Source of the DNA: the human T2T-CHM13v2.0 reference genome, Homo sapiens
Reading direction: 5' to 3' (one strand)
DNA length: 64,000 nt
NCBI RefSeq assembly: GCF_009914755.1
Contig: NC_060935.1
Part shown: positions 28,150 through 55,335 of the stretch, piece after piece
Numbering within the stretch: position 1 is the first letter of the stretch
Layout: the number at the start of each line of letters is the position of its first letter
The notes under the pieces: model-generated
The model's input: the letters and a program-made list of their open reading frames with translations, nothing else
What the model was told of the DNA's origin: nothing
Databases searched by the model: none
Program-made: the position numbers and the translations under genes

Positions 28150-28526
28150 TAAAGAGGTAGGATGTAAAGACAGGAATAAATTTATCCATGACTCCAAATA
28201 AATGTGTGAACTTTTAATATTCCATTTAGCTATTCAGAGGCTCCACAATAATACACGCATAAAATACAAATATATACACACACGTGTATATACACACATA
28301 TATATACACATATATGCATGTGTGTATATATATGTGTTTCTGTATTGTAGCACCTCTGAATACATGTATGTGTGTATGTGTGTATATAGGTATAAGTGTG
28401 TGTACATATGTGTAAGTGTGTGTGTTATTGTGGAGCCTCTGAAGAGCTAAATGGAGTATTAAAAGCCCACAAATTTATTTGCAGTCATAGATAAATTAAT
28501 TCCTGTCTTTACATCCTACCTCTTTA
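28150..28526. repeat. Long inverted repeat: 107-bp arms, 163-bp (CA/TA/TG) spacer
   Basis: 28150-28256 vs reverse complement of 28420-28526: 98/107 identical, ungapped (hand alignment). Confidence 0.95.
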
Positions 28527-33805: not shown

Positions 33806-34121
33806 AATCACTTAATAATGGGTTATTTTAATAATCTTAGATCCATTTATTATATATTAGATTTTCTTTTAAAGTTACTATATGTGTATATGCATATATG
33901 TGTGTACGATGTGCATGCATTTGTTTGTATAACAACCACTATCACCAAAACTGTGTCCCCACTATGCCGGGTATCCAGCAGTGTGAGAATGGACTAATGC
34001 ATATGCATTTGTTTGCGTTCACATCATACACACATATATACATATACACATATAGTAACTTTAAAAAATGTAATATAAATGTATCAAAGATTATTAAAAT
34101 AACCCCAGTTATTAAGTGATT
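33806..34121. repeat. Long inverted repeat (~110-bp arms) with a templated insert at the centre
   Basis: 33806-33919 pairs with 34014-34121 (few mismatches, small indels); 13-bp direct repeat atgcatttgtttg at 33915-33927 and 34003-34015. Confidence 0.93.
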
Positions 34122-51300: not shown

Positions 51301-51590
51301 CTCTCTCTCTCTCTATATATATATATAAAATTCCATAAATATACATATTTATTTATATATTTCTTTTAAATATATATATAAAATATATGCATTTTATATA
51401 TACTTATATATGTCTTCTATATATAGGAAATACATATACACACATATATAGGAAATATATATATGTATATACTTATAGGAAATATATATAAGTACATATA
51501 ACCTCTATATAGGGAATATATATAAATATTTTATATATAGGGAATATATATATATATAAAGAGATTATATGTACATAGTAAGAATATATG
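51301..51590. repeat. (CT)n-(TA)n low-complexity tract with repeated atag(g)gaa(a)tatatata units
   Basis: Direct reading. Confidence 0.9.
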
Positions 51591-51618
51591 TTCCTTAAAA
51601 AGGGTGAAATTAAAACTA

Positions 51619-54067
51619 GAGACAAGCCTCATTTTATCGCACTCTGCTTTATTATACTGTGGAGATACCTTGTGCTTTACAAATTGAAGGTTGTGATAAC
51701 CCTGCCACAAACAAGCTTACCAGTACCATTTTCAAACAGCATGTGTTCACTCTACCTTTATATCACATTTTGGTAATTCTCACAATATTCCAAACTTTAT
51801 TATTAATATTATGTCTCTTAAGGAGATCTTTGATCAGGGATCTTTGATGTTACTATTGTAATTTTTTTGAGTTGCCACAGACTGCACCCATATAAGACTG
51901 TAAAAATTGCTGAACACTGCATGTGTTCTGACTGCTCCACTGCAGGCCACTTTTTCCTGTCCCTCTCCCTGTCCTTGGCCTTCCTTATTCCCTAAGAGAC
52001 AACACTATTGAAATTAGGTCAGTTAAGAACCCTACCGTGGCCTCTAAGTGTTCAAATTGAAAGAAACAGTTACACTTCTCTCACATTAAATCAAAAGCTA
52101 GAAATGATTACACTTAGGCGGGCATGGCGAAAGCCAAGATAACCTGAAAGCTAGGCCTCTTGCATCAAACCTTAGCCAGGCTGTGAGTGCAAAGGAAATG
52201 CTTTTGAGGAAAATTAAAAGTGCTACTCCAGTGAACATACAAATAATAAGAAAGTGAAACAGCTGCATTCCTGATGTAGAGACAGTTTGAGTGGTCTGGA
52301 GAGAAGATGAAACCAGCTACGACATTCCCTTAAGCTAAAGCTTAATCCTAATTCTCTTCAATTCTTTGAATCCTGAGAGAGATGAGGAAGATGAAGCTTA
52401 GTACCTAGCAAAAGTTGATTCATAAGGTTTAAAGAAAAAAGCCATCTTCAAAACACAAAAATGAAAGATGAAGCAGAAAGTGCTGATGTAGAAACTGTAG
52501 CAAGTTATCTGGGACATCTATCTAAGATCATGGACAAAACTATCTGAAAAAACAAATTTTCAATATAGATGAAACAGCCTTTTACTAGAAGAAGATGCCA
52601 TCTGGGACTTTAATAGCTAGAGAGGAGAAATCGATGCCTGGCTTCAAAGCTTCAAGGCCCAGGTTGACTTTCAACCTGTATTGTTAAGTTGTAATGCACC
52701 TGATGATTGTAAATTGAAGCCAGTGCTCATATACCATTCCAAAATCCTGGACCTCTTAAAAGTTAGGCTAAATCTATTCTTCCTCTGCTCTGTAAATGAA
52801 ATTACAAAGTGTGGATGACAGCACATCTGTTTATAGCATGGTTTACTGAATATTTTAAGCCCACTGTCGAGATTTAATGCTCAGAAAAAAAGACTCATTT
52901 CAAAACATGACGGCTCATTGACAGCATCCCTGGTTACCCAAAGGCTCTGATGGAGATGCACAAGGTGATGAATTCTATTTTCATGCCTATTACACAACAT
53001 CCATTCCATGAATCTTGAATGTTCTTAATGGCATCTAGAGTGGTGAATCCTTATCAGAAGGTTTTTACCTTACTTTGCCCAGGAATATTAGAAGAATCAC
53101 CGGCTGTAGCTGTATGGCAGCTATAGTCTTATGCAACATATTTCTTAATAAAACTTCAAAATCAAAATTACTCCTTGATCCATAGCCTGTGATTCTGCTG
53201 ATGTTCTTATGCAAAGTAAATTAAAAACCTTTTGATAAGGATTCACCACTCTAGATGCCATTAAGAACATTCAAGATTCATGGAAGGAGGTCAAAATAGC
53301 AACATTAACAAGAGTTTAGAAGTTGATTTCAATCATTATGAGTGACTTCAGTGGAAGAAGTAACTGAAGATGTAAAAATATCAAGAACTAGAATTAGAAG
53401 TGGAGTCTGAGGATGTGACTGAATTGCTACAATCTCATGATAAAACTTGAACGGATGAAGAGTTGCTTATTATTGGTGAGAAAGAATGCAGTTCCTTGAA
53501 ATGGAATCTACTCCTGGTGAAGATGCTGTGAACATGGATGAAACCACTACAAAGTCTTTATAATATTATATAAATTTAGTTAATAAAGCAGTGGTAGTGT
53601 TTGAAAGATTGATTCCAATTCTGAAAGATGCCTTACAGTGAGTAAAATGCTATCAAACAGCATAGCATTCTACACTACTAAGAATTTTTTTGTGAAAGGA
53701 AGAGACAAACATGTCGCAAACTTCACTGTTGTCTTATTCTGAGAAATTGCCGCAGCCACTGCATTGTTCAGCAACCGTGAACCTGATCAGTCAGTAGCTG
53801 TCCACATCGAGGCAAGGCCCACCAGCAGCAAAAGATGACCATTTGTGGAAGGCTTAGATGATAGCATTTTTTAACAATGAAGTATTTTTTAATTAAGGTA
53901 TTTACATTTTTTAGATGAATGCTACTGTATGCTTAGTGGACTAAAGTAAAGTGTAAACATGAATTTTATAAGCACTGGATGCCAAAAAATTTTTGTGGCT
54001 GTATTGCAATATACACTTCATTGCAGTTGTCTAGAACTAAACCCACAATAATTCCCAGGTACACCTA
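51619..54067 (+). mobile_element. Full-length Tigger1 with decayed pogo-like transposase
   Basis: TA-flanked termini gagacaagcctc... / ...ccaggtacaccta; ~2.45 kb; transposase remnant caaattttcaatatagatgaaacagccttttac (QIFNIDETAFY) followed by a stop. Confidence 0.93.
53004..53285. repeat. Inverted duplication with inverted spacer inside Tigger1 (102-bp arms, 78-bp spacer)
   Basis: 53004-53105 vs reverse complement of 53184-53285: 92/102 identical; outer 53 bp perfect. Confidence 0.95.
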
Positions 54068-54079
54068 TAATTATGTTCA

Positions 54080-55335
54080 TTTATAATTTAATAAAGCTTT
54101 CTAGAAATGATCCCTTAGATCTATATATTGAAAAACTACACTTCTGTAGTTTACCTGAAACGATTAACTCCAAAACATATCTTAGTGAAACTATTAAATT
54201 TTAAAGATACTTTAAAAATATCCTTAGAATCCTCTAGGAAAAGAGATTAAATTATAACAGTGAGAAAATTAGACTGGCTGTAGACTTCTCAGGAATAACT
54301 CACAAAGCAAGGAGTTAATGGAGTGGAATTTCAGGAAACACAAAAAAGGGTAAGCCAAGCATTTTAGGTCTAGGCAAAAAATTTTCTTCAAGAATCAAGT
54401 GTACAGAAAAAGAATATGCAAGAACCAAGGAACATTATATACACAAATTGTTTATGAATAATCTATCATATAATGAGTTTCATCTAAATAAAATGTCCTG
54501 GTGAAACTTCAGTAAGGGAATTGATGATTAGCATTAATATATTTATTTCTTGAAATATGACTTAAAAGGGGTGAGGATATGAGTGGGTGAACAATATGTA
54601 AGTTTTATACATTCTGGCAAAATAAAGTATTCAAGTGTAAAATGAAAAGAGAAGAGAGATAAGTGAAAATAGAAAGATATTAATTGTGGGGTACGTCATA
54701 GGTGAGTCAAAGAATACTACTAAAAATGAAAGCCAGTTAGTACAATGCTAAAAATATGAGGCAGGGGTGGGAGGAAGCAGCTTTAGGGAAATGGGGACTA
54801 TATAAACTATAAATACAAAAATAATCCATAGAACAAACTTGTAAACTTTTCTAAATACCAAAGTAATTTTTTAAAAGGAGACAATACATTGAGAAACACA
54901 GTAAACAAAATATAATTCAAACAGAAAGTATACCAAAAAATGAAAGCACCAAACCCAAACACATCCGTTCTGTGTAATAGGTTGAACTCACCTATTACAA
55001 TAAAAAGATTTTAAAATTGGCACATAAAACCAAAATCTATGTTGTATGCCAGACCCATCTAAAATACAGTCATTCCAAAAAGTTAAATGAATGGAAAAAA
55101 CACATCAGTCAAATGGAAACAATAAGACAACAAACCTAATACGAGAGGAAGTAGAATTTAGGCCAAAAGCATTAGATGAGACAAACGGTGTTGTTTCATG
55201 TTGCTCATAGCCACAGTTCATAAGTTACATAAAACATTACTGATATCTGTGCACTGAAAAATACAACCACACACATACAGAACATAAACTTCAGTTGGTG
55301 CAGGGAAATATAAAGACAAAATAACACTAACAATA
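54080..55335 (+). mobile_element. Old L1M: ORF1 C-terminus, inter-ORF region, start of ORF2
   Basis: aaaattagactggctgtagacttctc (ORF1) and ggttgaactcacctatta...aaaagatt (ORF2 endonuclease start); boundaries approximate. Confidence 0.65.

What the first reader, a model, noticed from the sequence alone, without database searches (positions are those of the whole stretch)
53004..53285. Template-switch inversion-duplication in Tigger1 with a perfectly homogenised outer stem
Seen: 102-bp arms around a 78-bp spacer. The outer 53 bp are 100% complementary, while all 10 mismatches lie in the inner 49 bp. Against the Tigger1 consensus as I recall it, the order is A, inverted[B+C], C: the spacer is itself flipped, the signature of a replication template switch. 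Both arms share non-consensus bases (tgataaggattcaccactctag, caagattcatggaa). A derived patch in the right arm (tcttatgcaa, 53205-53214) also equals spacer 53127-53136. Inference: an old fold-back duplication followed by more recent arm-to-arm correction. Because the host consensus is known, the mechanism can be read out exactly here.
Basis: partly seen in the sequence, partly recalled or inferred. Interest (0 to 1): 0.7.

Follow-up and report, generated by a model that had tools for sequence, protein, structure and literature searches.

The report
Stacked template-switch hairpin in transposon fossil
Inside a dead DNA transposon in an intron of the human CNTN5 gene, a 100-base stretch is present twice, back to back around a flipped spacer; it was likely made by several successive replication slips of a known kind and is probably without function.

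Summary
In detail: 102-bp arms (53004-53105, 53184-53285), ten mismatches, all in the inner 49 bp. Against 29 paralogous pogo-type transposon copies the order is A, inverted[B+C], C; none of the 29 has the repeat and both junctions were found only here. This is the published template-switch class 'inverted repeat with inverted spacer' (1-3-4-2), with a long copied piece (about 177 nt). New details: the family itself has a 10/11 quasi-palindrome at the outer breakpoints, an older 11-bp mini-hairpin is inherited by both arms, and the ten mismatches are about seven events. The perfect outer stem is unlikely under one age (p about 0.005, or 0.04 allowing for a boundary chosen afterwards), so a second arm-to-arm copy is likely. 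But the history cannot be read out exactly: a young duplication with a hypermutated inner part fits as well, and the spacer may have flipped later rather than at birth. Primate orthologs, not available here, would decide. Two similar hairpins lie in the same window and one in another copy of the transposon. Real, tidy, ordinary in kind.

The parts
51918..54079 (+). Host element: pogo/Tigger-type DNA transposon fossil (recalled name Tigger1); span of paralog matches, true ends not mapped; about 13% from the paralog majority
   Evidence: weak DDE_1 pieces in order, strong DDE_1 and HTH_Tnp_Tc5 in paralogs
51918..53006 (+). Segment A, native orientation; its last 3 bp form the outermost pairs of the stem; 7 nt of the family sequence are missing between A and B
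53004..53056 (-). Left arm, outer 53 bp, perfectly complementary to 53233-53285
53057..53105 (-). Left arm, inner 49 bp; carries 4 left-derived bases plus 53101, and is contiguous with the spacer in the family sequence
53068..53069 (+). Derived dinucleotide that perfects a 5-bp mini-stem at 53059-53072; chance level about 0.12, so not evidence by itself
53102..53128 (.). Older mini-hairpin (11-bp arms 53102-53112 and 53118-53128, 5-nt loop): a net 8-nt templated insertion; its tail is also at the start of the right arm (53182-53188)
   Evidence: absent from 24 of 24 aligned paralogs; only match within 2 mismatches in a Tigger-like locus is this one
53106..53183 (-). Spacer: segment B and the start of C in reverse orientation
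53184..53232 (+). Right arm, inner 49 bp, native orientation; 5 right-derived bases
53205..53214 (+). Patch with three derived bases (53207, 53209, 53210) identical to spacer 53127-53136, 78 nt upstream on the same strand; chance about 0.005
53233..53285 (+). Right arm, outer 53 bp, native orientation, continuing into segment D

Best explanation
This is a single-locus inverted duplication with a flipped spacer inside a pogo-type transposon fossil, likely made by several successive replication template switches, the last of which probably re-copied the outer 50 bp from one arm to the other; it is probably without function. Likely order: (1) a short fold-back made the 11-bp mini-hairpin (inferred; it precedes the duplication because both arms carry its tail); (2) a switch seeded by the family's own 10/11 quasi-palindrome copied about 100-180 nt from the opposite strand and made the long arms (structure shown, mechanism inferred); (3) the arms diverged, with one 3-base patch probably templated from the spacer; (4) a later switch between the arms rewrote the outer stem, probably right to left, which would also explain the 7 nt missing at the end of A (inferred). 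Whether the spacer flipped in step 2 or in step 4 is open: both histories need the same number of events.
For: Order and uniqueness. Quasi-palindrome within 7 nt of both outer breakpoints, reached by 6 of 1500 random breakpoint pairs (the 7-nt tolerance was chosen after seeing the data). Mini-hairpin arm matches the paralog majority 10/11 on the strand opposite to its context; its tail in the right arm 7/7; 53186 is seen in 0 of 37 paralogs with a base there yet shared by both arms. 0 differences in 53 outer pairs against 7 events in 49 inner: p = 0.005 at the outer end, 0.037 for a run that long anywhere. Log-likelihood on event counts at d = 0.13: old duplication plus recent outer copy -5.4, single age -10.4. 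Patch: 0.005 in 20000 simulated clusters. Published precedent for the class (PMC5453318), for arm homogenisation with spacer inversion (PMC8604942) and for a second event on a hairpin made by a first (PMC10710096).
Against: A young duplication with a hypermutated inner part scores -6.2 on events and beats the favoured model on site counts (-5.6 against -7.2): shared derived bases are no denser in the outer stem (5-6 of 53) than in the inner part (5 of 43), where recent copying predicts they should be. With only the five single changes counted, a 53-bp perfect run anywhere has p = 0.14. The window holds three such hairpins, so one with a skewed mismatch pattern is not rare. No ortholog or population data. 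Recombination or break repair between the arms would leave the same sequence.
Confidence: 0.55

Rival explanations
1. One fairly young template switch made the whole 99-bp duplication; the outer stem is perfect because little time has passed, and the inner arms gathered excess, partly templated changes near the hairpin loop.
For: Shared derived bases 5 of 43 inner and 5-6 of 53 outer, both close to the 13% divergence of the flanks; inner arms are 10 of 43 from the majority, above background (p = 0.046); half of the inner mismatches sit in two clusters; likelihood equal to or better than the favoured model.
Against: Five single changes in the inner part have no nearby template longer than 7 nt, so an unexplained local rate increase is needed; does not explain the 7 nt missing at the end of A.
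Confidence: 0.22
2. One event of intermediate age, no later copying and no hypermutation; the mismatch pattern is chance.
For: p = 0.037 (7 events) to 0.14 (5 singles) for a perfect run of 53 anywhere; three hairpins in the window to choose from.
Against: About 5 log units worse than either two-rate model on event counts, 3-4 on singles, though the boundary was chosen afterwards.
Confidence: 0.13
3. The first event made only a short (about 50-bp) inverted duplication and a later switch added the outer stem new, rather than correcting one that had diverged; or the later step was recombination or break repair between the arms, not a replication switch.
For: Sharp boundary at arm position 53/54; a 45-bp unflipped inverted copy of this kind exists in paralog L002; PMC8755829 argues for break repair in some microinversions.
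Against: The quasi-palindrome at the present outer breakpoints points to a first switch there. Recombination across a 78-nt spacer is sterically hard by the argument given in PMC8755829 for loops under about 145 bp.
Confidence: 0.08
4. The stem is kept perfect by selection on an intronic RNA hairpin in the CNTN5 transcript (small-RNA precursor or editing substrate).
For: Sense-strand RNA folds into one long stem, -161.8 kcal/mol; template-switch hairpins in introns are a source of new miRNAs (PMC10710096).
Against: No Rfam match over the hairpin; no annotated RNA or element in the hub's table; only 57 of 6054 suitable hairpins are annotated miRNAs (PMC10710096); selection does not usually remove G-U pairs or every mismatch.
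Confidence: 0.02

Closest known systems
Short-range template switch, type 1-3-4-2 / 3-1-2-4 (Loytynoja and Goldman 2017, PMC5453318; Walker et al. 2021, PMC7954356)
   Same: [quoted passage not shown]
   Different: Copied piece about 177 nt against a median of 12 and a maximum of 128 in the ape gold set; within the 97-180 (unmasked) and 318 (all) maxima of PMC9435742. Lies in a repeat, which those scans filter out. Arms are partly diverged, so it is older or multi-step.
Quasi-palindrome arm homogenisation and spacer inversion (Abraham and Hazkani-Covo 2021, PMC8604942)
   Same: One arm templates the other; an inter-strand switch can homogenise and flip in one step.
   Different: Those arms are about 5-16 bp with 2-5 nt spacers in yeast genes; here 100-bp arms, only the outer half perfect.
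Two-step hairpin histories such as hsa-mir-4713 (Monttinen et al. 2023, PMC10710096)
   Same: A first switch makes a hairpin in a primate gene region, a later one modifies it; 31,007 new stems inferred in gene regions on the human line.
   Different: No miRNA is annotated here; stem is twice the 30-55 nt range used there; the history here is inferred from paralogs, not orthologs.
Human intronic long inverted repeats (Lirex paper, PMC5414712)
   Same: Arms over 30 bp with short spacer in long introns of primate genes.
   Different: The passages seen give no origin by template switch and no arm-polarity analysis.

Membership tests
Template switch type 1-3-4-2 | Descendant order A, inverted[B+C], C relative to the ancestral sequence | tested here: met
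   29 of 29 paralogs for the arm, 27 of 29 into the spacer; alignment of 24 of 29
Template switch type 1-3-4-2 | Repeat absent from the ancestral state | tested here: met
   0 of 29 paralog segments hold an inverted repeat over 27 nt; paralogs stand in for the ancestor
Template switch type 1-3-4-2 | Made in one event, copied piece identical to its template at birth | tested here: inconclusive
   Inner arms differ at 10 of 49; an unflipped duplication plus later flip gives the same order
Template switch type 1-3-4-2 | Short homology at the switch points | tested here: met
   3 bp at the outer junction, 2 bp at the inner one, 10/11 quasi-palindrome within 7 nt
Template switch type 1-3-4-2 | Placement on a primate tree with ancestral and derived alleles | not testable with these tools
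   The genome has no relatives here
Arm-to-arm homogenisation | Mismatch deficit in a contiguous tract | tested here: met
   p = 0.005 at the outer end, 0.037 anywhere, 7 events
Arm-to-arm homogenisation | Excess of shared derived bases in the converted tract | tested here: inconclusive
   5-6 of 53 outer, 5 of 43 inner (3 events); too few to tell
Arm-to-arm homogenisation | Lineage-specific substitutions present in both arms | not testable with these tools
   Needs primate orthologs
Tigger1 (pogo-type DNA transposon) | HTH_Tnp_Tc5 and DDE_1 transposase remnants | tested here: met
   3 of 9 window frames match DDE_1 below the cut-off, in profile order; 5 of 5 paralog frames match DDE_1 or HTH_Tnp_Tc5 above it
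Tigger1 (pogo-type DNA transposon) | Terminal inverted repeats and TA target duplication | tested here: inconclusive
   No inverted match over 9 nt between 51560-51720 and 53980-54120; ends are decayed
Tigger1 (pogo-type DNA transposon) | Best match to the Dfam/Repbase Tigger1 consensus | not testable with these tools
   No repeat library here; the name is recalled
miRNA hairpin | Known family or small-RNA read stack | tested here: inconclusive
   No Rfam match over the hairpin at E up to 1; reads not available

The most novel reading that the evidence does not exclude
This locus records a cascade of four or five template switches, each seeded by the hairpin left by the one before, including a later flip of the spacer alone (the patch is a textbook inverted-template repair only in the unflipped state); and short-spaced inverted duplications in mammalian germlines are re-perfected preferentially at their outer ends. 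Because published scans mask repeats, transposon fossils would be an unread genome-wide archive in which such histories can be read against paralogs without orthologs.
Probability: 0.2. Interest if true: 0.55.

Novelty: new member of a known kind. Interest (0 to 1): 0.25.

Why it matters
As a single locus it matters little: tens of thousands of template-switch stems are already inferred on the human line. Its use is as a worked example that a multi-copy transposon family supplies the ancestral sequence, so that switch points, seeds and the order of events can be polarised inside repeats that current scans exclude. If outer-stem re-perfection proved general, it would bear on how long hairpins, which are fragile DNA and long double-stranded RNA, are kept up without selection.

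Tried and rejected
Repeat is part of the family sequence or a subfamily: rejected (0 of 29; both junctions span only this locus among the 40 candidates scored of 1351 and of 264; exact 20-nt junction once in the genome; the four 2-mismatch loci checked were three unrelated and one ordinary transposon copy). Known RNA: only a weak mir-1261 match at 52279-52347, outside the hairpin. The dinucleotide at 53068-53069 as a templated change: chance level 0.12, not counted as evidence. My first null for the patch (0.013) allowed self-overlapping matches; corrected to 0.005. Outer-perfect polarity as a general rule: 28150-28526 has 28 perfect outer pairs (p = 0.07), 33806-34121 and L002 do not show it; four cases are too few. 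Published event lists: no chr11 row with coordinates starting 9967 or 9968 in 6 supplements of PMC7954356 (the GRCh38 position is my rough recalled conversion, and that study filters masked templates); no CNTN5 in 3 supplements of PMC10710096; PMC9435742 supplements only partly searched, 11 of 22 not read. Search CNTN5 + inverted repeat + hairpin: 0 papers. An absolute age for the element was not obtained: the two papers sought are not held. A wider survey of flanking DNA for more hairpins was not done, so their density rests on this window and 142 kb of fetched loci.

Full report
Observation. Ten mismatches fall at arm positions 54-98 counted from outside; positions 1-53 are perfect, and complementarity stops beyond 53004/53285. 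The DNA fold has z = -18.9 against 100 shuffles. 53205-53214 is identical to 53127-53136.

Host element. A search of the window's own genome scored 40 of 4352 candidates and gave 29 paralogous loci. They match the window from about 51918 to 54079. Three of nine short window frames match Pfam DDE_1 below its cut-off, in profile order, and five of five longer paralog frames match DDE_1 or HTH_Tnp_Tc5 above it: a pogo-type transposon. The name Tigger1 is recalled; no repeat library is available and terminal repeats were not recovered. The flanks differ from the paralog majority at 134 of 1009 and 89 of 709 callable sites, about 13%.

Order of segments. In 29 of 29 paralogs the window matches forward up to about 53006, in reverse over the left arm, and forward again from about 53180-53212; in 27 of 29 the reverse match continues through the spacer to 53158 or beyond. 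None of the 29 segments has an inverted repeat over 27 nt. Neither junction is spanned by another locus among the candidates scored, and the 20-nt outer junction occurs exactly once. So the order is A, inverted[B+C], C, and it is specific to this locus.

Junctions. I aligned 24 of the 29 paralogs, dropping five with large insertions. The outermost three pairs come from the end of A, so 99 bp are duplicated. The majority sequence carries an 11-nt quasi-palindrome (10 of 11) whose halves are the start of B and the end of C, within 7 nt of both outer breakpoints; 6 of 1500 random breakpoint pairs do as well (tolerance chosen afterwards; such 11-mers somewhere in 400 nt are common, 121 of 300 shuffles). 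In the register of that palindrome 7 nt are missing at the end of A. At the inner edge there is a net 8-nt insertion found in none of the 24: 53102-53112 matches the majority 10 of 11 on the strand opposite to its context and pairs with 53118-53128 around a 5-nt loop. Its tail also starts the right arm (53182-53188, 7 of 7), and 53186 is shared by both arms but seen in 0 of 37 paralogs. This small fold-back therefore came before the large duplication.

Polarising the arms (39 paralogous loci). Outer stem: 5 shared derived bases (6 with a variable CpG site), no private ones. Inner part: 7 shared (2 from the mini-hairpin, 3 adjacent), 5 derived on the right, 4 on the left, 1 where both differ from the majority. 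The ten mismatches reduce to seven events. The three right-arm changes at 53207-53210 create the 10-nt identity with the spacer; simulated clusters of that shape reach 10 nt in 0.5% of 20000 trials. In the present layout the template is a direct repeat 78 nt upstream; with the spacer unflipped it would be an inverted template 42 nt away that extends the mini-hairpin, the usual geometry. That hints at a later flip of the spacer but does not show it.

Is the outer stem younger? For ten independent changes p = 0.0004; for seven events 0.005 at the outer end and 0.037 for such a run anywhere; for five singles 0.023 and 0.14. At d = 0.13 the log-likelihoods on events are -5.4 (old duplication, recent outer copy), -6.2 (young duplication, hypermutated inner part) and -10.4 (one age); on sites -7.2, -5.6 and -13.4. 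One age is disfavoured; the other two cannot be separated. Zero of 53 bounds the outer divergence below 5.5%, the last fifth of the element's age; seven of 49 puts the inner split at 0.55 of that age (0.23-1.05).

Mechanism. Shown: the order, uniqueness, junction homologies and polarised changes. Inferred: template switching as cause, the order of steps, and a late arm-to-arm copy. Two histories need the same number of events: flip at birth then fold-back correction, or unflipped duplication then one inter-strand switch that both rewrites the outer arm and flips the interior. Paralog L002 shows the unflipped first step in the same family, a 38-nt insertion that is an inverted copy of the sequence just downstream.

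What is known. PMC5453318 (passages): type 1-3-4-2 gives an inverted repeat with inverted spacer, 23% of 794 events. PMC7954356 (passages and supplement search): 4017 events, median copied length 12, maximum 128, masked templates filtered. PMC9435742 (passages; supplements partly): longest 318 bp, 97-180 unmasked; switches can be chained. PMC8604942 (passages): homogenisation and spacer inversion, reversible. PMC10710096 (passages, section 9, supplement search): 53,666 events in gene regions, 31,007 new stems, two-step cases. PMC8794818, PMC8755829, PMC5414712 (passages). PMC5753468, PMC7325037 and PMC1914374 (passages) gave family background only. I found no mention of this locus; unread supplements and subscription papers may hold one.

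How common. A self-scan of the window and 142 kb of fetched loci found two more hairpins with arms near 100 bp in the window (28150-28526, 33806-34121) and the L002 case, apart from pairs that look like Alu or other repeats and simple repeats; the arms of the two window hairpins matched nothing else among the candidates scored. The structure is thus ordinary in kind.

Verdict. Real, well-defined, a new member of a known class, on the long side and with an unusually legible multi-step history. Late copying of the outer stem is the most likely reading (0.55) but awaits primate orthologs. Function is unlikely. Interest 0.25.

Noticed in passing
window 28150-28526: A second fold-back duplication: arms of about 105 bp, about 91% complementary, outer 28 bp perfect, TA/CA-rich spacer; arms matched nothing else among 40 of 87 candidates scored.
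   Followed up: partly
window 33806-34121: A third fold-back duplication: arms of about 100 bp with several indels, in sequence with no other match in the genome search.
   Followed up: partly
L002:651-746 (G000:C23, about 43803300): Another copy of the same transposon with a 38-nt insertion that is an inverted copy of the sequence just downstream, spacer not flipped; absent from six paralogs compared.
   Followed up: partly
window 51308-51577: TA-rich, partly palindromic simple repeat just upstream of the transposon.
   Followed up: no
window 52279-52347, minus strand: Weak Rfam mir-1261 match (26 bits, gathering score 91) inside the transposon; probably chance or shared repeat origin.
   Followed up: no
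L033:1490-1520 (G000:C2): An ordinary copy of the transposon whose A/B boundary resembles the window's outer junction at 18 of 20 bases without any inversion.
   Followed up: partly
window 51918-54079: The 2.2-kb transposon fossil is not among the masked stretches listed in the hub's table, although it matches many loci at 70-80% identity.
   Followed up: no
L009:3369-3409: A 41-nt AT-rich near-palindrome at the edge of the locus.
   Followed up: no
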